Of a stretch of DNA of 64,000 nucleotides, positions 4,889-51,604 are shown one piece after another. Within the stretch, counting starts at the first letter, position 1. Every line of letters starts with the position of its first letter. Under the pieces are notes generated by a model. That model saw nothing but the letters and a program-made list of their open reading frames with translations, made no database searches and was not told the DNA's origin. Source of the stretch: Bacilli bacterium (GTDB lineage: Bacteria > Bacillota_I > Bacilli_A > RF39 > UBA660); NCBI GenBank assembly GCA_017626405.1, contig JAGAIS010000006.1, positions 7,100-71,099 of the forward strand. The letters run 5' to 3'. The position numbers were made by a program, and so were the translations under genes.

Positions 4889-6358
4889 ATGATAAAGATA
4901 AAACATTGTATTTTTTTATTATTATTGATAATTGTGCCAGTAAATATTTATGCTTATGAATTAACATGTGATAGATCAAATGTAAATTATGATGAGAATT
5001 TCTTTTGCTATTTAACGGGAGAGTCGAATCAAGTATACAATGAATTAAGTGGAAACATACTTAGCAATAATAATATAATCAAATGTACTCCAACTTCTTT
5101 CTCTAATGGATTGAGTATTATTGAAAGTAGTAAAAGTTTTGCATATATGGGGAAACCAACAGATGAAAAATTAGTGACTTTCAGTTGTAAACTTACTGAA
5201 CAATTATCTAATGTTGAAAAAACACAAATAAAGATAGATAGTTTTAAATACGATGTTGGAGGAAATGGATTATCTAGTGAAAACGAGATCCTATCAACAG
5301 ATTTTATCAATGCTAATATCTATGATAATGAAACAGAAATCGACGACTTACCACGAAATACTTCGAATCCAGATTCTCTATTAAAAGAGTTGTCTGAAGA
5401 AAATCTAAACATTGTTTTTTCTCGTTTTGTTACCATATATAATCAGGAAGTATTGTATGAAGTAGAAAAGCTAAATCTAAATGTGGTTGCTAATAATCCA
5501 CAAGCTACTATTAGAATCGAAGTAAATGGAATAGATAATAATACTAATCTAAATATTGGAAAGAATGTAATTAATATATTCGTTACTTCTCCGGATGGCG
5601 TAAGTACGACATGTTATACTTTAAATGTTACTAGACTTGCTCGAGGAGAGAGTATTTACTACCCTGAAAAAGACGCAACTCTTTATAGTTTAATTCTTCC
5701 TGGATATGCAATTTCTTTTGATAAGGATACTTATGAATATCGCGTTCATCTAACAAGCGATGTATCAAAATTAACTGTTAATGCAGTACCAACTTACGAT
5801 GAGGCAACAGTAGATATATCATCAACTACAAATTTGCGAAATAATAGTATTATTAAAGTGACAGTTACTAGCAAAGATAAATCAAATACTCTTGTGTATT
5901 CAATTAAAGTAACCAAAGATGCACCAAAAGTGAACTATATTCCCTATATCGTAGCGGGAATAATTGGTATATTATTGATAGTTATGATTGTGTTATTCAT
6001 AAAAACTAGTAAGACGAAAAAGTCTGGAGGGCCAACAGTAATACCTGATGTTGATTTAAATAGTAATATTAATCAAACGAATGCAAATATTCCAAATAGT
6101 CAAGCCCCTAGTAATACTCAAGAGATAAATAGTAATGTGATTTCAAATAATATTCCTGAACAGAATATTGTACAACCGGTAAGTGTTCAAACAAATAATG
6201 AAACTCCAATTGGAAATCAATTAAATCAAATTCAAAAGGAAAATAATATAAATTACACAAGTAATGCAGTAAGTCAAATTACTACAGAAGAAAATACAAT
6301 TAATCAAAGTAATATAACAAATGATCAAAGTAATATAACAAATGAAAACAATCAATAG
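4889..6358 (+). CDS. membrane-anchored surface protein with two cadherin-like beta-sandwich modules and an Asn/Gln-rich tail
   Basis: Signal peptide MIKIKHCIFLLLLIIVPVNIYA. Two ~85-aa modules with the L..L.....F....Y.Y.v ... Y.i.V.R pattern. TM helix YIPYIVAGIIGILLIVMIVLFI, then a low-complexity N/Q/S/T tail. Start set to ATG 4889 (AGGA 9 nt upstream). Confidence 0.6.
   Translation: MIKIKHCIFLLLLIIVPVNIYAYELTCDRSNVNYDENFFCYLTGESNQVYNELSGNILSNNNIIKCTPTSFSNGLSIIESSKSFAYMGKPTDEKLVTFSCKLTEQLSNVEKTQIKIDSFKYDVGGNGLSSENEILSTDFINANIYDNETEIDDLPRNTSNPDSLLKELSEENLNIVFSRFVTIYNQEVLYEVEKLNLNVVANNPQATIRIEVNGIDNNTNLNIGKNVINIFVTSPDGVSTTCYTLNVTRLARGESIYYPEKDATLYSLILPGYAISFDKDTYEYRVHLTSDVSKLTVNAVPTYDEATVDISSTTNLRNNSIIKVTVTSKDKSNTLVYSIKVTKDAPKVNYIPYIVAGIIGILLIVMIVLFIKTSKTKKSGGPTVIPDVDLNSNINQTNANIPNSQAPSNTQEINSNVISNNIPEQNIVQPVSVQTNNETPIGNQLNQIQKENNINYTSNAVSQITTEENTINQSNITNDQSNITNENNQ
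6303..6344 (+). repeat. perfect 21-bp tandem duplication inside the coding tail
   Basis: atcaaagtaatataacaaatg occurs twice back to back, encoding (N/D)QSNITN x2. Confidence 0.8.
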
Positions 6359-19324: not shown

Positions 19325-20314
19325 ATGAAAAAGAATGGTTTTATTGCGACAAGTATATTATATTCATTCTTTTTGGTATTTGTAACTCTTTTTGTAGCTT
19401 TGATTTCTGCATACTTGCACAATAGGATACTATTATCTAATATGAATGAGGCAGCATGGGATACCCTAGTTGGAATTAATAATACAAAAATATCAGATTT
19501 GAGTGTTGGTGATTATATATCTTTTGATACAGATAAGGCCGGTTCTGTTATAAATACTGGTGCAAAGTGGATTACAGCATATATAACTACTAATGGCGAT
19601 AATAAAACTTATTACTTTATTAGTGATACTTCAGCTCAAAAACAAGAAGTAATATTTAGAGCAAGTTATGATACAATTGAGAAAGTCCATGTATTTACAC
19701 CGATTTTATATCGAGAATTAGTTGCTACTCCATCGTATACTAATTCATTCTATATTCCAGGATTTAAGGTCTATTTACCAACAGTTTCACTACTAGAGAA
19801 TATTAGAAAACAAAACATTCATCCTGATGTAATGGATGCTATATTTGATATTAATAGTAGTTATATCGTGAATATGGATAAAGCAATTAGTGGATATCAA
19901 CAGAATCAATTTTATGAATATAGAATGTATAATTTTTCGCTTGGAAGTCAGCAAAACAATGTTGTGCCATCTTATTGTGGCGGATCATTTAATGGTTCAA
20001 AAGTTACATATAATTCAAACAATACATTCGGTTATATAAATGTTGTTAAAGACTCAGTAAAGAACGAAAAATATGTAGACTATTGTTCCTACGCTTCACC
20101 AATTGCATACTCTCATAATGCTAACGATTTAGTAGTGAGTACTACAGAAAATAAGCCTTCGGGAGATTTAGTCGAAAATTTATATTCAGCATCATATAGT
20201 TACCGCTTAGTTGCTGAAATTACTGTAAACACTTCTCAAAATAATACATACATTGCTGGTGGAAAAGGAAATTATATGGATCCTTATCTATTTACGAATG
20301 GGGTGAAGCAATAA
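19325..20314 (+). CDS. prepilin-type N-terminal domain protein, large minor pilin lacking Glu5
   Basis: MKKNG|FIATS plus a hydrophobic helix; position +5 is Ser rather than Glu. First gene of three translationally coupled pilin-like genes. GGAGAGG SD. Confidence 0.55.
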   Translation: MKKNGFIATSILYSFFLVFVTLFVALISAYLHNRILLSNMNEAAWDTLVGINNTKISDLSVGDYISFDTDKAGSVINTGAKWITAYITTNGDNKTYYFISDTSAQKQEVIFRASYDTIEKVHVFTPILYRELVATPSYTNSFYIPGFKVYLPTVSLLENIRKQNIHPDVMDAIFDINSSYIVNMDKAISGYQQNQFYEYRMYNFSLGSQQNNVVPSYCGGSFNGSKVTYNSNNTFGYINVVKDSVKNEKYVDYCSYASPIAYSHNANDLVVSTTENKPSGDLVENLYSASYSYRLVAEITVNTSQNNTYIAGGKGNYMDPYLFTNGVKQ

Positions 20315-20862
20315 TGAAGAAAAATGGTTTTGTCTTTTTAGAGACCATTGTAGTAATTAGTGTATTGTCAATTACCTTACTACTTTTATTCTCTTCGTAT
20401 TCCTTTATGTTGCGCAAATCACGAGAAAGAGATACTTTTGACAATATTGATTTAATATATAAAACCTATTATATTAAGGATATATTAGATAATTATAAAG
20501 CTAGTAGAGGAGCAAATGATCCTAGGAGTAGTATAATGTTCTATATTGATAAAAATAGCTTAGAGTGTAAAAAAATGGGATCTTTCAATAGTTATGTTTG
20601 TGATTTATCAAATCCTTCCTATAGTGGATCACTTTTATCAGCTAAAGCAGCTTTTGAAGCAGATAAAATCTATCTACTTAATCCAAATGAATTATTAAAA
20701 TCAAGTAATAAAAACAATTGGTTAGCTTTATTTGATGCAACAACTATCGATTATATAAATGAACTTGGAGTAGCAACAAATAAGCAAATAATGGTTGTTA
20801 AATATAAGAAAGTCTATGGCGATGGAACTTATGAAGTATTCCATTCCTCAATAGAAGTATAG
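20314..20862 (+). CDS. type IV minor pilin / pseudopilin
   Basis: MKKNG|FVFLE (Glu5) plus a hydrophobic helix; the ATG overlaps the upstream stop (TAATG). Confidence 0.6.
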   Translation: MKKNGFVFLETIVVISVLSITLLLLFSSYSFMLRKSRERDTFDNIDLIYKTYYIKDILDNYKASRGANDPRSSIMFYIDKNSLECKKMGSFNSYVCDLSNPSYSGSLLSAKAAFEADKIYLLNPNELLKSSNKNNWLALFDATTIDYINELGVATNKQIMVVKYKKVYGDGTYEVFHSSIEV

Positions 20863-20870
20863 GTGATATC

Positions 20871-21674
20871 ATGACAAGAAAGAAAAATGGAATGACTATC
20901 GTCGAAGTATTAATCAGTATACTATTAATCAGTATAGTAGTTGCTCTTTTATTTAATATGTTGATTCAAATTAGAAACGAAGACGTAGATAATACAATTC
21001 AATCGAATTTTTTATTGTCGCAGGCTATGTTTACTAAGACAGTTGAAGAAGATGCCATCAATTATGGGGTTTCTAGAGTTAGCTCTTGTAATTTAACTGA
21101 TGCTAATATTTCTATAGAATTATTAAATTCAGCATATGCTAATGAATTTAAATGTATAAGAATAGATTATGCTGCTGATTATACTGAAGATAATATTGGA
21201 TTCCTTATGGCATATAATACATTTGAAAAATATGATGTTGTAAATGGTAAATATCAAGGAATTCAAGATACATCCTCATGGATGATCCAATATATTAGAG
21301 GACACTATGAAAAAGATCAAAGCGGCCACAAATTGGGAGATCCAGCATTTAGCATCAATTATCCTGATGTTTCAACTTGGAAGAGTTTAACTCAAACAAT
21401 GCGATCACTTCCTGCAGATATAGACATGTCATATACATCATACATTAATTATACAGCAGCTCCTTCTTCAACTATTGGGGGAATAATTACTAATTATAAT
21501 GCTGCTAATTTAGTAATGCCAATTGTTAATCCTGATGGAGAACATTACGATATCAATATTGCTTTCACTTTTAATGGAAATAACAATTTTAAATGTGATA
21601 TGAAAAAACCTAAATCATTAGATTGTAGATGTAAGAGTAGTAATTCATTATGTCAAAATACATATCAATACTGA
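20871..21674 (+). CDS. type IV minor pilin / pseudopilin with a Cys-rich C-terminus
   Basis: MTRKKNG|MTIVE (Glu5) plus a hydrophobic helix. AGGTGA SD. C-terminus KCDMKKPKSLDCRCKSSNSLC. Confidence 0.6.
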   Translation: MTRKKNGMTIVEVLISILLISIVVALLFNMLIQIRNEDVDNTIQSNFLLSQAMFTKTVEEDAINYGVSRVSSCNLTDANISIELLNSAYANEFKCIRIDYAADYTEDNIGFLMAYNTFEKYDVVNGKYQGIQDTSSWMIQYIRGHYEKDQSGHKLGDPAFSINYPDVSTWKSLTQTMRSLPADIDMSYTSYINYTAAPSSTIGGIITNYNAANLVMPIVNPDGEHYDINIAFTFNGNNNFKCDMKKPKSLDCRCKSSNSLCQNTYQY

Positions 21675-31894: not shown

Positions 31895-31923
31895 TTGAAA
31901 AAAAAGAATTACTATCTTATAAT
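31895..31923 (+). promoter_or_regulatory. sigma-A-like promoter (TTGAAA-17-TATAAT) of the pilin-adhesin gene
   Basis: TTGAAA at 31895-31900, a 17-nt spacer, TATAAT at 31918-31923. Confidence 0.55.
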
Positions 31924-31956: not shown

Positions 31957-33975
31957 ATGAGAAAGAAAAATGGTTTTACTCTTGTCGAATTGCTTGCTGT
32001 TATTATTGTACTAGCACTCATTATGGTAATTGCGATTCCATCAGTAATGGATGCTATGAATAAAGCGAAAAAGGAAAACTTTTTCCTATTTGTACAAAGT
32101 TTAAATAGCAAAGCAACAAATAGATATATTCAAGAGTCTGATATCGATCCCGATATCGCATCGTGTGCTGTATACGATATATCAACAGATTTAGATTTAT
32201 CGAATACAGGAGAATATGAAGGTTGGGTTAAAGTTGAGAGAACACCAGTCAATTCAGGATATAACTCGGTAAGTATTGATGTTTCATCTTCTACAGCTCT
32301 TCAGGGAGTTAAATACTGTGTTATTAAAGGTAGCAAATGTGTGCCGAATACATCTTTTAAAGTGGAAGAGGGAAGTTCAAAAGCAACAGTTACTAAAAGA
32401 TTAAAAGAAGGACAAGTGTTATGTGTTAACTACCAATATACTACGGGTAATACAGTTAATACATCAGGAACAACTTGTAAGTCTTATTCTGATGGAACCG
32501 CATCTAATGATACATACGATTATAAAGTAGAAGTTACATTGACTGATAAAGCATATGTTGTTCAAGATTATGCATTAGTCGGTGGAGACAATATTAAAAA
32601 AACTGATTTTTATAAATTGTTAGATAGTAATAAGTCAGCCCCTCCTTTAGGAGATACTAAGAATCCTACAAAGATAGCGTCTCCTAGATGTAGTACAGAA
32701 GAAGCTGTTACATATAAAGGAATTACAGATACTAAAACAACACTTATTACTACGACATCAACAACTAAGAAAACATGTGATATAACATCGACAGTAAGTA
32801 ATCAATACAGAATTAAATTTAACACATATGGTGGAACTAAGATAGATCCTATTGAAACATGTACTACATGCAATAGTAATGAAACTTTACCTATTCCAAA
32901 GAGAGATGGTTATACTTTCGGTGGATGGTATTTTGATACGACATTTACAAAACCAGTTAATGGAGTATATGTAAATAACATTACAACAGAAGAAAAATAT
33001 GATTCGGGTGGATGTTTATCAGGATATAAAGATGTTAGTTTATATGCTAAATGGAATAGTGATGCAACGACAACAACAACTAAAGGAACACAAATAATTG
33101 ATCCAAATTCAACGACAACTAGAGGAAGTTCTGAAGTTACTACATCTACAACTACAGAGAGATCAAGTAATACAGTCACTACAACTACAACAAATAGAGA
33201 TAAAACTGATTATTCATTACTACTTAAGAGTTTAACTATTGGCGGATATGATATTGGTTTTGATTCTCTAGAATACACTTATGCAATAAATGTACCAAAT
33301 AGTCAAACTAGTCTAAATATATCTTATGAGGCAATGGAACCAGAAAATGTTCAAGTTACTGTCATAGGAAATGATAACTTAAATGTTGGTACAAACAATG
33401 TAAATGTAGAAGTATTCAATATCTATACGGGAAAGAGATTAATGTATAGAATATATGTTAAGAGATTTGGAGCAAATGAAGTATATGATCCTCATGCTAC
33501 TAAACCGATAGAGAATCCAAACGGAGATCCCGATGCACCAGATCCAACATTAGAAGAATCAAATGCTCAATTAAAGAGTTTATTAATATCAGGATATATC
33601 CTTAAATTTGATCCTCAAATCTACGAATACGACTTAGAGATTGCCGATGAGGAAACATTGAATGTGTCTTATAGGGCAGCATCCTCAAAGGCTACAGTAG
33701 TTGTAACTGGAAATGAAAATATTAAAGATGGATCTGTAATTGAAGTATATGTTCAAAGTCAAAATGGATATTACAATAAAACTTATAAAGTTAATCTAAA
33801 GAGAAATGTACCTGAGTCTAATACGACGAAAGTATTAAGAACTGTAGCTATTGGCTTAGGAGCGACGCTAGTTATACTACTTATAGTTACGGCAATAAAT
33901 AAGAAAAACGGTTCGAGAATAGTTAAGAAAACTAATAATCAACCATATACAAGTACTACTACGGGAGAAAAATAA
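31957..33975 (+). CDS. type IV pilin-like protein fused to a Listeria-Bacteroides-type repeat, Thr-rich linkers, two cadherin-like beta-sandwich modules and a C-terminal TM anchor
   Basis: MRKKNG|FTLVELLAVIIVLALIMVIAIPS (prepilin motif with Glu5). A pilin head paralogous to the 34070 gene. YRIKFNTYGG.......LPIPKRDGYTFGGWYFD (Flg_new-type repeat). TTTT linkers. Two L.SL.I.GY...F....Y.Y ... Y.I.VKR modules. TM VLRTVAIGLGATLVILLIVTAI. Start is 31951 or 31957. Confidence 0.7.
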   Translation: MRKKNGFTLVELLAVIIVLALIMVIAIPSVMDAMNKAKKENFFLFVQSLNSKATNRYIQESDIDPDIASCAVYDISTDLDLSNTGEYEGWVKVERTPVNSGYNSVSIDVSSSTALQGVKYCVIKGSKCVPNTSFKVEEGSSKATVTKRLKEGQVLCVNYQYTTGNTVNTSGTTCKSYSDGTASNDTYDYKVEVTLTDKAYVVQDYALVGGDNIKKTDFYKLLDSNKSAPPLGDTKNPTKIASPRCSTEEAVTYKGITDTKTTLITTTSTTKKTCDITSTVSNQYRIKFNTYGGTKIDPIETCTTCNSNETLPIPKRDGYTFGGWYFDTTFTKPVNGVYVNNITTEEKYDSGGCLSGYKDVSLYAKWNSDATTTTTKGTQIIDPNSTTTRGSSEVTTSTTTERSSNTVTTTTTNRDKTDYSLLLKSLTIGGYDIGFDSLEYTYAINVPNSQTSLNISYEAMEPENVQVTVIGNDNLNVGTNNVNVEVFNIYTGKRLMYRIYVKRFGANEVYDPHATKPIENPNGDPDAPDPTLEESNAQLKSLLISGYILKFDPQIYEYDLEIADEETLNVSYRAASSKATVVVTGNENIKDGSVIEVYVQSQNGYYNKTYKVNLKRNVPESNTTKVLRTVAIGLGATLVILLIVTAINKKNGSRIVKKTNNQPYTSTTTGEK

Positions 33976-34014
33976 TTTTCCGTAGTAAACTTGATATAAA
34001 ATATTCAATTAGTA

Positions 34015-34043
34015 TTGACTAAAAATATAATAAAATATATAAT
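34015..34043 (+). promoter_or_regulatory. near-consensus sigma-A promoter (TTGACT-17-TATAAT) of the major pilin gene
   Basis: TTGACT at 34015-34020, a 17-nt spacer, TATAAT at 34038-34043. Confidence 0.6.
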
Positions 34044-34069: not shown

Positions 34070-34585
34070 ATGAAGAAGAAAAATGGTTTTACTTTAGTTG
34101 AATTATTAGCAGTTATCGTTGTACTAGCATTAATTATGGTTATTGCTATACCATCAGTACTTGATGCAATGAATAAAGCTAGAAGGAGTGCATTTGTTGA
34201 ATATGCTCAAAAAGTAATTAATAATACAACAACAGAATATACTTTTGATGCAAGTGCTACTATTCCTGGAGTTGGTATTTATGTTTATGACATTACTCAA
34301 GATTTAGGAAATTTACATTCAGGAAGCTACAAAGGATATGTTGTAGTTGATGCTACTGATGTTGACAAACCTAGATATATCTTAACTATGTGGGATGATA
34401 ACTATCAAATCGTATCATTTGATACTTCAAGAGGTTATCCAACAACTGATACTGCAGAGATTACAGGTGTAACTCAATCAACTAAAAATTTAACTGCTAT
34501 TGATGCTTGCTCAGCTGTTTCTTCAACAGATCCTTGTTATAATAGACAAGGCTATGTTCTAAAAGCTGGAAACGCAACAGAATAA
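34070..34585 (+). CDS. type IV major pilin-like protein
   Basis: MKKKNG|FTLVELLAVIVVLALIMVIAIPS; 171 aa. Monocistronic, between a strong promoter and a terminator. GAGAGG SD. Confidence 0.8.
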   Translation: MKKKNGFTLVELLAVIVVLALIMVIAIPSVLDAMNKARRSAFVEYAQKVINNTTTEYTFDASATIPGVGIYVYDITQDLGNLHSGSYKGYVVVDATDVDKPRYILTMWDDNYQIVSFDTSRGYPTTDTAEITGVTQSTKNLTAIDACSAVSSTDPCYNRQGYVLKAGNATE

Positions 34586-34601
34586 TTTAATAAATAAAAA
34601 G

Positions 34602-34628
34602 TCAACTATATATTAGTTGATTTTTTTA
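34602..34628 (+). terminator. rho-independent terminator after the pilin gene
   Basis: Stem tcaacta/tagttga, loop tatat, then T7. Confidence 0.55.
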
Positions 34629-34637
34629 TGTTATAAT
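34629..34637 (+). promoter_or_regulatory. extended -10 element (TGtTATAAT) for nfo
   Basis: Lies directly after the terminator T-run, 20 nt upstream of ATG 34658. Confidence 0.4.
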
Positions 34638-34657
34638 TTATATGTTAGGTGATAATT

Positions 34658-35551
34658 ATGTTATTAATAGGTTCTCATGTATCATATAAAAATGAAACGC
34701 AATTACTTGGAAGTGTAAAAGAAGCACTATCATATAAATCAAATTGCTTTATGTTCTATACTGGAGCACCTCAGAATACGCAAAGAGGAAAAATTGATGA
34801 TGAATTAACTTATAGGGCATATGAATTAATGAAGGAGAATGGAATAGATTTGGAAAATATTATTTGCCATGCCCCTTATATTGTCAATTTAGCTAATGAT
34901 TTAGATAGTGAAAAATATGAATTTGCTATAAATTTTCTTACAAACGAATTAAGAAGATGTGACCAATTAGGAATTAAATATTTAGTTTTACATCCTGGAA
35001 GTCATATGAAAATAGAAAAGAATCATGCTATTTACAATATAGTTAAAGGCCTTAATATTGCTCTATCAACTTCAAGTAATACTGTTGTTTTACTTGAAAC
35101 TATGGCTGGTAAAGGTACTGAACTAGGTACAAATATATGTGAATTAAAAGAAATAATTAATAATATTGATGATAAGAATAGAATAGGGGTATGTCTTGAT
35201 ACTTGTCATTTGAATGATTCGGGAATTGATATTTCTTATTTTGATGAGTATTTAAATGAATTTGATAAAGAAATAGGAATAGATAAGATAAAGTGTGTTC
35301 ATGTTAATGATTCTAAAAACCCTCTTGGCAGTCACAAAGATAGACATGAAAATATTGGGTATGGAACAATTGGATTTGATTCTCTTATAGGTGTAATCTA
35401 TAATAAAAAACTTGAAAATGTCCCTAAAATACTAGAAACGCCTTATGTGAATCGCGAATATCCTCCATATAATCAAGAAATTGAAATGATTAGGAGCAAA
35501 ACATTTAATCCAAATCTATATCAAGATATATTAGATTATTATAGAAAGTAG
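34658..35551 (+). CDS. nfo: endonuclease IV
   Basis: Xylose-isomerase-like TIM barrel: IGSHVS, HAPYI.NLA, LVLHPGSH, LETMAGKG, G.C.DTCH..D.G and VH.NDSK...GS.KDRHE.IG.G.IG. Start moved to ATG 34658. Confidence 0.9.
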   Translation: MLLIGSHVSYKNETQLLGSVKEALSYKSNCFMFYTGAPQNTQRGKIDDELTYRAYELMKENGIDLENIICHAPYIVNLANDLDSEKYEFAINFLTNELRRCDQLGIKYLVLHPGSHMKIEKNHAIYNIVKGLNIALSTSSNTVVLLETMAGKGTELGTNICELKEIINNIDDKNRIGVCLDTCHLNDSGIDISYFDEYLNEFDKEIGIDKIKCVHVNDSKNPLGSHKDRHENIGYGTIGFDSLIGVIYNKKLENVPKILETPYVNREYPPYNQEIEMIRSKTFNPNLYQDILDYYRK

Positions 35552-50044: not shown

Positions 50045-51604
50045 ATGAAAAGAAAATTAAGTATATTGATTATTTCAATATTTACATTATTATTATGGGG
50101 AAATAAGGTTGATGCTGCATCTTTAGCTTATGCATCGGATATGAAAAAAGATGGTAATACAACAGAAATTGGTGTTTTTTTACATGTTTCCTCAGGAGAA
50201 AACGTAACACAGGCAAAATTTGTATGTTCAACAGATAATGCTGAAGTAAAATGTGAAGTTAAAAAAAATGAAAACTATAAAAGGGCAACTATCCTATTTG
50301 ATGGAGGTATAATAAGCACTTTATCTGAAGAAGGGTTGCCTGATGGAGAAAATGAAGTAGTTAAAATAGTATTAACTAACGAATCTAGCAAAGCAGTTTC
50401 AGTAAAAGTTTCGTTAGATGGGTCCACTTATTCAACAAACGAAAGCCAAAAGAGTTATACTTTATCAGTAGATAAAAAATCGAGCGGTAATGCCTTAGCT
50501 TCTAGTGTTAAATTTAGCCAAGGAACAATGGTACCTGAATTTAATCCAAATGTTTTTGAATACACAGTATACAATATTCAAGATACCATTAATTCAGTTA
50601 TTGGAACTCACGAATGTCAAGACGCCAATACATGCGATTTCTCATGGAGTGGTGGTAAAAGTATATCTAATTTAAATAAGATATTTTTAAATATGGGAGA
50701 GAACAAAGTAACTCTTGAACTAACTAGTGAGAATGGTCAAAATAAACAGACGTATAACTTTACCATTATACGTGGAGAATCGGCATTCAATAGTTCAAAG
50801 CTTGCAACATTAAAAATTGGAAATTATATCTTAACACCAGCTTTTTCTAAAGATATATTTGAATACTCTGTAAATATTCCAAATAAAATAACTTCAATTG
50901 ATAATGAACTTTCGTATACTGCTGAAGATTTAAAAGCAAATATATCAATTGAAAAACCTGATAGTTTAGTTGTTGGTGAAAATATAATTAAAATTACAGT
51001 TGATAATGTTAATTCAGATGGAACTTCTACATATACAATTAAAGTCAATAGAATGTCTTTAGAAAGCATTGAAGTAACTAATTACAAAAATGGGATTGTT
51101 ACATATTTAGATAGCGAAGGTGTAAAATACGAATTAGCTGAAGATGAATTTAAAATGCAATATCCTGATGACTATATAAAAATTATTGATAATACTTACA
51201 AATTTGATGATAATGGTGAGAGAATTACTGATACTAATAAAGACGATGGCGAGATAGCAAAAGAAGAGAAGAAGGAAACAAAAAAAGATAATAAAGTACT
51301 TCTTATTGTATGTTTAGTAATTGTTGGGTTAATAATTATTATTGTCTCAGGAATCCTAATATTTAAGAAGAAACCTGAAAATAAAAACAATAAGAAAGAT
51401 AAAACTAATAAAGAAGATAAAACATCAGAAGAAGATTCAAAAGATGATGAAATTGATGAAACGGGAGTAGAGGAAGAAGCAATTAAACTAACAAGAGTTA
51501 CACCTCATAATGAAGATGATACAGTTGATATTGATGAAGCTCTATCAGATTTAATGAGTACTAAACAATATAATTTAGATGATTTAACAAAAAAAGAAGA
51601 ATAG
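50045..51604 (+). CDS. secreted, membrane-anchored protein with two cadherin-like beta-sandwich modules and a Lys/Asp/Glu-rich tail
   Basis: Signal peptide ...LLLWGNKVDA|AS. Modules ...F.P.VFEYTVY ... YNFTIIRG and L.TLKIGNY.L.P.F....FEYSV.IP ... YTIKVNR. TM VLLIVCLVIVGLIIIIVSGILIF, then a charged tail. Confidence 0.6.
   Translation: MKRKLSILIISIFTLLLWGNKVDAASLAYASDMKKDGNTTEIGVFLHVSSGENVTQAKFVCSTDNAEVKCEVKKNENYKRATILFDGGIISTLSEEGLPDGENEVVKIVLTNESSKAVSVKVSLDGSTYSTNESQKSYTLSVDKKSSGNALASSVKFSQGTMVPEFNPNVFEYTVYNIQDTINSVIGTHECQDANTCDFSWSGGKSISNLNKIFLNMGENKVTLELTSENGQNKQTYNFTIIRGESAFNSSKLATLKIGNYILTPAFSKDIFEYSVNIPNKITSIDNELSYTAEDLKANISIEKPDSLVVGENIIKITVDNVNSDGTSTYTIKVNRMSLESIEVTNYKNGIVTYLDSEGVKYELAEDEFKMQYPDDYIKIIDNTYKFDDNGERITDTNKDDGEIAKEEKKETKKDNKVLLIVCLVIVGLIIIIVSGILIFKKKPENKNNKKDKTNKEDKTSEEDSKDDEIDETGVEEEAIKLTRVTPHNEDDTVDIDEALSDLMSTKQYNLDDLTKKEE

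What the first reader, a model, noticed from the sequence alone, without database searches (positions are those of the whole stretch)
31957..33975. Chimeric type IV pilin: prepilin N-terminus and pilin head fused to adhesin-type domains, ending in a C-terminal transmembrane anchor
The protein begins like a standard type IV pilin (MRKKNG|FTLVE..., Glu5) with a head domain paralogous to the neighbouring 171-aa pilin. It then continues for about 550 aa. This part contains a Listeria-Bacteroides-type repeat (YRIKFNTYGG...GYTFGGWYFD), poly-Thr linkers and two cadherin-like beta-sandwich modules. It ends with a TM helix (VLRTVAIGLGATLVILLIVTAI) and a short tail. A subunit anchored at both ends is topologically hard to reconcile with incorporation into a pilus fibre. 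Three readings seem possible: (i) a pilus-tip or base adhesin released by cleavage, (ii) a pilin-like module reused as a membrane stalk, or (iii) a recent fusion between a pilin gene and a member of the cadherin-like family seen at 4889 and 50045.
Basis: partly seen in the sequence, partly recalled or inferred. Interest (0 to 1): 0.6.

Follow-up and report, generated by a model that had tools for sequence, protein, structure and literature searches.

The report
Type IV pilin with membrane anchor
An uncultured gut bacterium and nearly all species of its genus encode a pilus subunit that carries a stalk of surface-protein domains and ends in a second membrane anchor, so it is built to stay tied to the cell, a design I found nowhere in the literature I searched.

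Summary
Window 31957-33975 is one uninterrupted 672-aa gene. It has a canonical prepilin N-terminus (leader MRKKNG|F, Glu5, Pro22) and a 55-residue alpha-1 helix, followed by a Cys-rich beta head. Next come a Thr-rich linker, one Flg_new repeat, a second Thr-rich linker and two Cadherin-like domains. It ends in a transmembrane helix and a basic, low-complexity tail.

It is not a frameshift or a recent accident. More than 60 homologues keep both ends. It occurs in 19-20 of 22 species genomes of the genus, always just upstream of a 171-183-aa pilin. dN/dS is about 0.12 in every domain. Sister genera have only the small pilin at this site. The Cad-Cad-TM-tail part is shared with Sec-dependent paralogues. 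The gene is therefore an old, genus-wide fusion of a duplicated pilin with a stalk-and-anchor cassette.

PilB-, PilC- and PilD-like genes are present. PilT, PilM and PilN were not detected.

None of about 100 other large pilins in related bacteria has a second TM, and no paper I found describes one.

Best reading (inferred, about 0.4): a modular pilin that co-assembles with the neighbouring pilin but stays tied to the membrane, anchoring or stopping the fibre. Rivals are a never-polymerised hairpin protein and proteolytic release. No expression data could be obtained.

The parts
31895..31923 (+). Promoter-like site of the large pilin gene (TTGAAA, 17 nt, TATAAT; 11 of 12 matches)
31957..33975 (+). 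Whole gene: 672-aa membrane-tethered modular type IV pilin (P0001)
31957..31974 (+). Prepilin leader MRKKNG ending in Gly(-1). This is the predicted cleavage site for the A24 prepilin peptidase.
   Evidence: Pfam N_methyl and TIGR02532 above cut-off. Gly6 is invariant in 62 of 62 sequences.
31975..32145 (+). Alpha-1 helix of the pilin module (mature residues 1-57). Phe1, Thr2, Leu3, Glu5, Leu7, Val9 and Pro22 are invariant.
   Evidence: AF2 helix 9-63. Column counts. PDB profile match to S. sanguinis PilE1 8pfb. dN/dS 0.07.
32146..32730 (+). Enlarged beta-rich pilin head (residues 64-258) with conserved Cys70, 121, 128, 156, 174 and 245. Homologous to the neighbouring pilin only up to about residue 99.
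   Evidence: Foldseek gives no significant PDB match, only weak CBM/Ig-like beta-sandwich hits.
32731..32802 (+). Thr-rich disordered linker 1 (residues 259-282)
   Evidence: pLDDT below 50. S/T-rich and of variable length across the family.
32803..33063 (+). Listeria-Bacteroides (Flg_new / InlB B-repeat type) domain, residues 283-369. Present in about half of the family.
33064..33213 (+). Thr-rich disordered linker 2 (residues 370-419)
33214..33471 (+). Cadherin-like beta-sandwich domain 1 (residues 420-505)
33472..33567 (+). Inter-domain linker with the conserved motif G-x-PDPTL-x-ESNA. Its length is fixed at 33-35 aa in nearly all members.
33568..33807 (+). Cadherin-like beta-sandwich domain 2 (residues 538-617), the most constrained extracellular domain (dN/dS 0.04)
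33832..33900 (+). C-terminal transmembrane helix (residues 626-648), 9 residues after Cad2. One face is conserved: Leu627, Arg628, Gly633, Leu634, Leu638, Leu642.
33901..33972 (+). Cytoplasmic tail: a basic cluster (KKNGSRIVKK) followed by low-complexity sequence. Tails are 9-99 aa long in homologues.
34015..34043 (+). Promoter-like site of the partner pilin gene (TTGACT, 17 nt, TATAAT; 11 of 12 matches)
34070..34585 (+). Partner 171-aa type IV pilin (P0002). It lies immediately downstream in every species examined and is the ancestral occupant of this site, in front of nfo.
19325..21674 (+). Operon of three minor-pilin-like genes (329, 182 and 267 aa). The first lacks Glu5. This is the probable tip or priming complex of the same filament system.
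   Evidence: scan note e1-2844199
4889..6358 (+). Sec-dependent paralogue with the same Cad-Cad-TM-tail cassette. Its kind is the likely donor of the C-terminal half.
50045..51604 (+). Second Sec-dependent paralogue with two Cadherin-like domains, a TM and a charged tail

Best explanation
Shown:
- The gene encodes a genuine, conserved modular type IV pilin. Its N-terminal module carries every sequence hallmark of a polymerisable, major-pilin-like subunit: Gly-1, Phe1, Glu5, Pro22 and a 55-residue alpha-1 helix that is almost identical to that of the adjacent 171-aa pilin.
- Its C-terminal half is a stalk-and-anchor cassette (two Cadherin-like domains, a TM helix 9 residues later, then a basic cytoplasmic tail). 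The cassette was borrowed from a family of Sec-dependent surface proteins.
- The two halves are joined by a Ser/Thr-rich linker of variable length.
- The genome encodes a PilB/GspE-like ATPase, a PilC/GspF-like platform and an A24 prepilin peptidase.

Inferred:
- The protein inserts as a hairpin with both ends in the cytoplasm and about 600 residues outside.
- The peptidase removes the 6-residue leader.
- The pilin module is then taken up at the base of a filament built mainly from the neighbouring pilin, in the way system-specific minor pilins that share the major pilin's alpha-1N are taken up.
- Because the C-terminal helix stays in the membrane, the subunit can travel outwards only until its tether is taut. 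My estimate is about 50 nm here and 25-60 nm across the family, roughly the span of a Gram-positive wall.
- It would therefore act as a leash. It would fix the fibre to the membrane and/or stop its elongation, in a minimal system where no PilT, PilM or PilN was detected.
For: Architecture and conservation:
- Domain matches are above curated cut-offs and the AF2 domain layout agrees.
- Both anchors are present in all of about 60 full-length homologues and in all 11 further full-length 50%-identity representatives.
- 19-20 of 22 species genomes of the genus (own genome included) carry the gene next to a small pilin.
- Synteny ylbD / 73-aa gene / large pilin / small pilin / nfo / rnfC holds at 41% identity.
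- dN/dS is 0.12 overall, 0.07 for alpha-1 and 0.09 for the TM.

Polymerisation competence:
- Gly-1, Phe1, Thr2, Leu3, Glu5, Leu7, Val9 and Pro22 are invariant in 62 of 62 sequences.
- Alpha-1N pairwise identity is 0.75, against 0.39 for the C-terminal TM of the same proteins, which serves as an internal control for a mere anchor.
- Alpha-1N is 36/38 identical to the partner pilin, although the DNA differs at many synonymous sites. Selection rather than recent conversion therefore maintains it.
- There is slight but significant within-genome co-variation of alpha-1C with the partner (0.338 against 0.299, no permutation of 5000 reached it).
- The three tip-type minor pilins have divergent alpha-1N without Pro22.
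- In Neisseria, minor pilins that share the major pilin's N-terminus are distributed along the fibre (PMC10191384).

Machinery:
- PF01478, PF00437 and PF00482 match above cut-off.
- The ATPase scores 466 bits on PilB/GspE models against 261 on ComGA.

A real anchor rather than a sorting signal:
- Tails of 9-99 aa follow the TM.
- There is no LPXTG, although 5 sortases exist in the genome.
- No NCBIfam C-terminal sorting model matches.
- The Cad2-to-TM spacing is 9 aa in 61 of 62 members, and one TM face is conserved.

Specificity:
- None of 109 other prepilin ORFs (50 of them at least 300 aa) in related Bacilli MAGs has a second TM.
- None of about 50 other modular pilins has one either.
Against: - Nothing experimental. 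There is no evidence that the protein is cleaved by the peptidase, enters a fibre or keeps its C-terminus.
- The head-to-cassette linker varies from 17 to 210 residues. This argues against a precise length ruler.
- Foldseek did not match the head to any solved pilin. The pilin fold of the globular part therefore rests on homology to the neighbour (residues 1-99) and on the helix.
- Glu5 and alpha-1N conservation could also reflect recognition by the peptidase or platform, or pilin-pilin contacts within the membrane, without polymerisation.
- The genome is 89% complete, so the absence of PilT, PilM and PilN is provisional.
Confidence: 0.42

Rival explanations
1. Permanent hairpin surface protein. 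The prepilin helix is used only as a second, N-terminal membrane anchor, processed or not by the A24 peptidase, and is never extracted into a fibre. The protein would be a doubly anchored wall-zone scaffold or adhesin. Alternatively it could be a membrane accessory of the pilus machine that contacts pilins or the platform through its alpha-1N and its conserved C-terminal helix, possibly standing in for the undetected PilM/PilN alignment proteins.
For: - Topology makes this the simplest reading, with both ends carrying positive-inside signals.
- PilM and PilN were not detected.
- The conserved Leu/Gly face of the C-terminal helix suggests helix-helix contacts.
- In two members the linker is only 17-19 residues long, which keeps the head close to the membrane.
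- Another note of this scan (e1-985633, unchecked) proposes filament-independent hairpin-anchored pilin-like adhesins in archaea.
Against: - A mere anchor needs hydrophobicity, not invariant Phe1, Glu5 and Pro22 in 62 of 62 sequences.
- It also would not need near-identity to the partner pilin maintained against synonymous divergence.
- From established knowledge (not tested here), Glu5 is dispensable for cleavage but needed for assembly.
- The Sec-dependent paralogues show that this lineage already has a simpler way to make C-terminally anchored surface proteins.
Confidence: 0.25
2. Released modular adhesin. The C-terminal helix is a temporary anchor that is cut off by the rhomboid or another protease. 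After that the protein behaves like the known modular pilins (S. sanguinis PilB and PilC) and displays its Flg_new and Cadherin-like modules on the fibre.
For: - One rhomboid gene is present.
- The outer half of the TM contains helix-destabilising Gly and Ala residues (AIGLG).
- Modular pilins are widespread and are thought to sit at fibre tips (PMC8179133; PMC9934059).
- Partial release of a C-terminally anchored archaeal enzyme by an unknown mechanism is documented (PMC3387779).
Against: - There is no recognisable sorting or cleavage motif and no LPXTG, despite five sortases in the genome.
- Long cytoplasmic tails of variable length follow the TM.
- The TM and basic stretch are under purifying selection, with one conserved face.
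- About 100 other modular pilins of related bacteria manage without any C-terminal TM.
- A rhomboid is present in all 14 control genomes, so its presence here says little.
Confidence: 0.15
3. Tip-tethered pseudopilus. The protein joins the priming complex at the fibre tip. Its tether then caps the whole fibre at wall-spanning length, giving a short piston-like pseudopilus as in type II secretion or competence systems.
For: - Bulky modular pilins are modelled at the tip in S. sanguinis.
- The estimated tether reach of 25-60 nm is about the thickness of a wall (inference).
- No PilT was detected.
Against: - Its alpha-1N is of the major-pilin type, unlike the divergent alpha-1N of the three minor pilins encoded at 19325-21674.
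- The gene is not in that operon.
- The variable linker length fits a defined pseudopilus length poorly.
Confidence: 0.1
4. Assembly or annotation artefact: two genes wrongly joined, or a decaying pseudogene.
For: One congeneric genome (G004) has the gene split into two frames.
Against: - The identical ORF is found on 9 independent contigs.
- More than 60 intact homologues exist.
- dN/dS is 0.12.
Confidence: 0.01

Closest known systems
Modular type IV pilins PilB (vWA module) and PilC (Ig-like plus lectin modules) of Streptococcus sanguinis (Raynaud et al. 2021, PMC8179133; Shahin et al. 2023, PMC9934059)
   Same: - Monoderm host.
- Canonical class III signal peptide with Glu5.
- A pilin module joined by a flexible linker to domains that are not specific to pilus biology.
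- The best PDB sequence match of the alpha-1 helix is S. sanguinis PilE1 (8pfb).
   Different: - A C-terminal TM helix plus a cytoplasmic tail. The word 'transmembrane' does not occur in PMC8179133.
- The gene is not in a pil operon but paired with one pilin among housekeeping genes.
- The grafted modules are a stalk cassette shared with Sec-dependent membrane-anchored paralogues, not an obvious ligand-binding head.
- Alpha-1N is of the major-pilin type.
System-specific minor pilins ComP, PilV and PilX of Neisseria meningitidis (as summarised in PMC10191384)
   Same: They share the major pilin's N-terminal helix and are inserted along the fibre at low abundance. This is the mode of incorporation I propose here.
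   Different: They are small, have no grafted modules and have no second anchor.
Basal pilins of sortase-assembled Gram-positive pili (for example the basal subunit described in PMC4049620)
   Same: Functional analogy only: a dedicated last subunit that ends polymerisation and fixes the fibre to the cell envelope.
   Different: Unrelated proteins and chemistry (sortase transpeptidation to the wall). Here there is no LPXTG and the anchor would be a TM helix.
TadG of Tad pili (hypothesised membrane anchor of the pilus; cited in PMC4858521)
   Same: A large pilin-like protein with an extra domain, proposed to anchor a type IV filament to the membrane.
   Different: TadE-type N-terminus and a vWA domain. 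As far as I know it has no C-terminal TM. It belongs to the Tad (type IVc) system.
Sec-dependent surface proteins of the same genome with Cad-Cad-TM-tail (window 4889-6358 and 50045-51604), and archaeal S/T-stalk plus C-terminal-TM surface proteins (PMC3387779)
   Same: Membrane-proximal beta-sandwich stalk, a TM, a basic cluster and a low-complexity cytoplasmic tail. The alignment is collinear at 26% identity and includes the TM.
   Different: They have a cleavable Sec signal peptide and an unrelated head, so their N-terminus is freed. Here the N-terminus is a prepilin helix that stays hydrophobic after cleavage.

Membership tests
Type IV pilin (class III signal peptide protein) | Short basic leader ending in Gly(-1), then a hydrophobic stretch of about 20 residues with Glu at +5 | tested here: met
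   MRKKNG|FTLVELLAVIIVLALIMVIAIP. Pfam PF07963 scores 26.8 bits (cut-off 21.2) and TIGR02532 scores 23.7 (cut-off 16.3). Gly-1, Phe1 and Glu5 are invariant in 62 of 62 sequences.
Type IV pilin (class III signal peptide protein) | Extended N-terminal alpha-1 helix of about 50 residues carrying a globular beta head | tested here: met
   AF2 helix 9-63 followed by beta strands 70-207, with pLDDT 86 for the module. A profile of the family matches the alpha-1 of PilE1 8pfb, E 7e-8.
Type IV pilin (class III signal peptide protein) | Globular head with a recognised pilin fold | tested here: inconclusive
   Homologous to the adjacent pilin up to residue 99 (52% identity). Foldseek of the 262-residue model finds no pilin and nothing below E 0.01.
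Type IV pilin (class III signal peptide protein) | Cognate prepilin peptidase, assembly ATPase and platform protein in the genome | tested here: met
   PF01478 scores 40.9 bits, PF00437 scores 404 bits and PF00482 scores 111.5 and 80.8 bits in the own genome.
Type IV pilin (class III signal peptide protein) | Leader cleavage, N-methylation and incorporation into a filament | not testable with these tools
   Needs biochemistry or imaging. The organism is known only from metagenomes.
Modular pilin in the sense of Raynaud et al. 2021 | N-terminal IPR012902/N_methyl motif plus at least one domain not specific to pilus biology | tested here: met
   Flg_new (PF09479) and two Cadherin-like (PF12733) domains lie after the pilin module. 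The definition is read.
Sortase substrate (LPXTG cell-wall sorting signal) | LPXTG-type motif, a hydrophobic segment, then a short basic tail at the extreme C-terminus | tested here: not met
   There is no LPXTG before the TM in P0001 or in the family consensus. Tails of 9-99 residues follow the TM. Sortases do exist in the genome.
Other C-terminal protein-sorting signals (PEP-CTERM, GlyGly-CTERM and similar; NCBIfam models) | Match to a curated sorting-domain model at the extreme C-terminus | tested here: not met
   No such model appears among the NCBIfam hits at E up to 1.
Competence (Com) pilus pilins ComGC to ComGG | Scores above the NCBIfam equivalog cut-offs, with ComGA/ComGB-type machinery | tested here: not met
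   ComGC scores 26 bits against a cut-off of 75. ComGD, ComGE and ComGF are also far below their cut-offs. The ATPase and the platform score higher on PilB/GspE and GspF/PilC models than on ComGA/ComGB.
Cadherin-like beta-sandwich surface proteins (PF12733) | Domain match above the gathering score | tested here: met
   34 bits against 24.2, in two stretches. Foldseek of the whole model hits tandem cadherin and Ig domains, E about 1e-4.

The most novel reading that the evidence does not exclude
This family would be the first dedicated anchor or terminator subunit of a type IV filament. It would be a pilin selected to be taken up by the assembly machine but unable to leave the membrane. Its incorporation would fix the fibre to the cell and set an upper limit to further growth. 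That would be a type IV counterpart of the basal pilin of sortase pili. It would have been invented in one genus of small-genome gut Bacilli by fusing a duplicated major-type pilin to a stalk-and-TM cassette. It would also compensate for a minimal machine with no detected PilM/PilN alignment proteins or PilT.
Probability: 0.3. Interest if true: 0.75.

Novelty: new variant of a known kind. Interest (0 to 1): 0.6.

Why it matters
Type IV pilins are defined by leaving the membrane to enter a fibre. How fibres are held in the envelope of single-membrane bacteria, and what limits their length, is poorly understood.

A conserved pilin that is built to remain membrane-tethered gives a concrete, testable handle on both questions. 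One could delete the C-terminal helix, or vary the ratio of the two neighbouring pilins, and then measure fibre length and shedding.

It also extends the catalogue of modular pilins with a class that domain-based surveys would file as ordinary 'pilin plus Cadherin-like', because the decisive feature is a transmembrane helix rather than a domain.

If the rival reading is right and the protein never polymerises, it would instead show that the prepilin signal can be recruited as a plain second anchor. That matters for how pilin counts in metagenomes are interpreted.

Tried and rejected
- Frameshift or mis-assembly: rejected.
- Recent gene conversion as the cause of the shared N-terminus: rejected, because many synonymous differences separate the two 5' ends.
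- Recent fusion: rejected, because the gene is genus-wide.
- Sortase or other known sorting signal: rejected.
- A fixed molecular ruler: not supported, because the linker ranges from 17 to 210 aa.
- Com-pilus membership: not met.
- Foldseek of the whole model returned only tandem cadherin/Ig hits.
- Foldseek of the isolated pilin module returned nothing significant. The head fold therefore remains unassigned beyond weak CBM/Ig-like similarity.
- An intrinsic terminator between the two pilin genes: none was found. There is only a hairpin across the stop codon without a T-run, so co-transcription is open.
- Literature searches for a type IV pilin with a C-terminal TM or anchor found no such case. 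The library does not cover most subscription journals.
Full report
**What is there.**
Window 31957-33975 (+) is a single open frame of 672 codons. Pfam and NCBIfam place four kinds of element on it, all above curated cut-offs:
- a prepilin N-terminal methylation motif (residues 1-27);
- one Listeria-Bacteroides/Flg_new repeat (about residues 283-369);
- two Cadherin-like beta-sandwich domains.

An AlphaFold2 model built on 62 family members gives this layout (mean pLDDT 76.9):

| Residues | Element |
|---|---|
| 9-63 | continuous helix |
| 70-250 | confident beta-rich head |
| 259-272 | disordered Thr-rich segment |
| 283-368 | Flg_new fold |
| 370-415 | disordered Thr-rich segment |
| 423-503 and 539-616 | two beta-sandwiches |
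| 622-650 | helix |
| after 650 | disordered tail |

The C-terminal helix coincides with a strongly hydrophobic 19-residue window (Kyte-Doolittle 2.54). It is followed by NKKNGSRIVKK. With the basic leader MRKKNG at the other end, both termini carry positive-inside signals. The predicted topology is therefore a hairpin with about 600 residues outside the cell. This is an inference; no dedicated topology predictor was available.

The first 99 residues are 52% identical to the adjacent 171-aa pilin at 34070-34585. Beyond that point the heads differ.

**It is not an artefact and not recent.**
- The identical protein is called on nine independent contigs from different samples.
- A search of 5.8 billion proteins returned about 65 relatives of 545-777 aa with the same N_methyl plus Cadherin-like annotation. 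Every full-length one has both the GFTL(V/I)E prepilin motif and a C-terminal hydrophobic helix followed by a basic cluster.
- An exhaustive phmmer search of 1.84 billion representatives added 11 further full-length members, all with both anchors.
- In whole genomes, the gene is present in 19-20 of 22 species genomes of the window's genus (the own genome included). It always lies immediately upstream of a 171-183-aa pilin. One copy (G004) is split.
- The neighbourhood ylbD-like / 73-aa gene / large pilin / small pilin / nfo / rnfC-like / rnfD-like is kept at 41% protein identity.
- Against the orthologue of the closest species, dN/dS is 0.12 overall. By part it is 0.07 for alpha-1, 0.12 for the head, 0.04 for the second Cadherin-like domain and 0.09 for the TM plus basic stretch.

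**Origin.**
- Other genera of the same family lack the large gene. They have one 157-180-aa pilin directly in front of nfo.
- Residues 414-652 of the large protein (both Cadherin-like domains, the linker between them, the pre-TM spacer, the TM and the basic cluster) align collinearly with residues 156-380 of the protein at 4889-6358 (26% identity, E 1e-13).
- That protein, and the one at 50045-51604, begin with ordinary Sec signal peptides and unrelated heads. Further Cadherin-like paralogues lie elsewhere in the genome.
- The simplest history is a tandem duplication of the resident pilin, fused at the base of the genus to a stalk-and-anchor cassette from this family.
- The Flg_new domain is a later, optional insert, present in about half of the members.

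**The filament system around it.**
- The 1.25-Mb genome (89% complete) encodes an A24 prepilin peptidase and a PilC/GspF-type platform as a pair on another contig. It also encodes a PilB/GspE-type ATPase 66 kb downstream of the gene.
- The ATPase scores 466 bits on the PilB and GspE models, against 261 on ComGA.
- At least nine prepilin-type genes are scattered among housekeeping genes. They include an operon of three minor-pilin-like genes at window 19325-21674 whose first member lacks Glu5.
- No PilT-like second ATPase, PilM or PilN was detected. A separate Tad-like ATPase locus exists.

**Why I think the pilin module is meant to polymerise.**
- Across 62 family members, Gly-1, Phe1, Thr2, Leu3, Glu5, Leu7, Val9 and Pro22 are invariant.
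- Mean pairwise identity of leader plus alpha-1N is 0.75. The C-terminal TM of the same proteins, which is a plain anchor, has 0.39. This contrast is an internal control for what 'just a membrane anchor' looks like.
- Glu5 is known to be dispensable for leader cleavage but needed for assembly. This is established knowledge of type IV pilins and was not tested here.
- The alpha-1N is 36/38 identical to that of the partner pilin, although the two DNA sequences differ at many synonymous positions. The identity is therefore held by selection, not by recent conversion.
- Across 20 genomes, the alpha-1C of the large pilin is slightly but consistently more similar to the partner in its own genome than to partners in other genomes (0.338 against 0.299; none of 5000 permutations reached this).
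- In contrast, the three operon-encoded minor pilins have divergent alpha-1N without Pro22.
- In Neisseria, minor pilins that share the major pilin's N-terminus are distributed along the fibre, whereas the divergent core minor pilins prime it at the tip (PMC10191384; PMC9934059).
- By this analogy the large pilin would enter the fibre like a major subunit, at its base.

**Why I think the C-terminal helix is a real anchor.**
- It is followed by 9-99 further residues, so it is not at the extreme C-terminus as sorting signals are.
- No LPXTG precedes it, although five sortases are encoded.
- No NCBIfam sorting-domain model matches.
- The spacing from the second Cadherin-like domain to the helix is 9 residues in 61 of 62 members. 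The inter-domain linker is 33-35 residues in nearly all and carries a conserved PDPTL..ESNA motif.
- Leu627, Arg628, Gly633, Leu634, Leu638 and Leu642 are conserved on one face of the helix, which suggests helix-helix contact.
- Only the Ser/Thr-rich head-to-cassette linker is free to vary, from 17 to 210 residues.

**Mechanism proposed (inferred).**
After insertion and leader removal, the pilin module is taken into the base of a fibre made mainly of the neighbouring pilin. The cassette stays in the membrane.

Counting 114 unstructured residues at about 0.36 nm each, plus three domains of 3-4.5 nm, gives a maximal reach of about 50 nm here. The shortest and longest family members would reach about 25-60 nm. 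This is my estimate. It is of the order of a Gram-positive wall and equals a few tens of subunit rises.

The subunit would therefore leash the fibre to the membrane and stall further extension once the tether is taut. I put this at about 0.4.

**Rival readings.**
- A hairpin protein that is never polymerised, possibly an accessory of a machine lacking PilM/PilN (0.25).
- Proteolytic release, giving a conventional modular adhesin pilin (0.15). A rhomboid is present, but one is also present in all 14 control genomes.
- A tip-tethered short pseudopilus (0.1).

**Comparison with what is known.**
Modular type IV pilins are established and widespread: more than 1,200 proteins in 264 architectures (PMC8179133). 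This protein meets that definition.

What I could not find anywhere is a second, C-terminal membrane anchor on a pilin:
- The word 'transmembrane' does not occur in PMC8179133.
- The 2023 review of type 4 filament assembly mentions no anchored or terminating pilin.
- Four targeted full-text searches returned only sortase pili, archaeal S-layer-type proteins and TadG as a hypothesised anchor.
- About 50 other modular pilins of related Bacilli MAGs, carrying BspA-type LRR, Hint and other modules, have no C-terminal TM.
- None of 109 prepilin ORFs in 77 loci of related MAGs has one either.

Two unchecked notes of this scan describe pilin-like proteins with a second anchor in a Calescibacteriota bacterium (with a Hint domain) and in Thermoplasmatota archaea. 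The design may therefore recur.

I file the protein as a new variant of a known kind.

**Limits.**
Everything about processing, location and function is inference from sequence. The head fold beyond residue 99 is unassigned. The genome is incomplete.

Noticed in passing
window 19325-21674: Three translationally coupled minor-pilin-like genes (329, 182 and 267 aa). The first has Ser instead of Glu at +5 (G|FIATS), like the capping subunits GspK and S. sanguinis PilA. Only the third reaches the Pfam N_methyl threshold. All three have divergent alpha-1N without Pro22.
   Followed up: partly
own genome C4:107204-109888 (outside the window): The PilB/GspE-like ATPase is 894 aa long. The core lies at about residues 100-520. 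It is preceded by a duplicated motif (TQYVDEFGNPIDPSLIDE.GNYIG, twice) and followed by an extremely acidic Asp/Glu-rich tail of about 370 residues. Such a tail is unusual for this family.
   Followed up: no
own genome C4, C7, C2: The filament genes are scattered singly or in pairs among housekeeping genes. pilC-pilD lies after the ribosomal cluster on C7, pilB on C4, and pilins at C2:50038, C4:101820 and C4:199557. No PilT, PilM or PilN was detected in the 89%-complete assembly.
   Followed up: partly
own genome C4:155075-157312 (-): A second very large prepilin-type protein (745 aa, leader MKKSAKMG|FTLVE). It has no Pfam or NCBIfam match beyond the motif and no C-terminal TM. It lies next to a 667-aa membrane-anchored protein.
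   Followed up: partly
own genome C4:256801-260115 (-): A Tad-like locus. It has a CpaF/TadA-type ATPase (520 aa) with a Gln/Pro-rich C-terminal tail, flanked by a TadB-like membrane protein and a 269-aa protein with an N-terminal TM.
   Followed up: no
window 33958-33986: An inverted repeat (ACTACGG...CCGTAGT) spans the stop codon of the large pilin gene. No T-run follows it. No convincing terminator separates the two pilin genes, although each has its own 11-of-12 promoter-like site.
   Followed up: partly
L101 (G004:C56:300-3200): In one congeneric species the large pilin is split into a 352-aa frame and a second frame covering the cassette. This is either a pseudogene or an assembly error.
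   Followed up: no
proteins P0072-P0122: Related small-genome Bacilli MAGs encode many proteins that join an almost identical prepilin N-terminus to BspA-type LRR/DUF285 (PF03382) modules or to Hint-type autoprocessing domains (PF07591, PF01079, PF14890). The prepilin signal appears to be a common carrier for surface modules in this clade.
   Followed up: partly
L111 5399-6852; L113 3072-4590; window 34070-35551: The linkage of a small pilin gene directly upstream of nfo (endonuclease IV) is conserved across several genera of the family. This is an odd, stable pairing of a pilus gene with a DNA-repair gene.
   Followed up: partly
P0138 (401 aa): A minimal family member: the pilin module (aligned to residues 2-258), then only about 110 residues, then the TM. 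The tethered-pilin design evidently persists without the full cassette.
   Followed up: no
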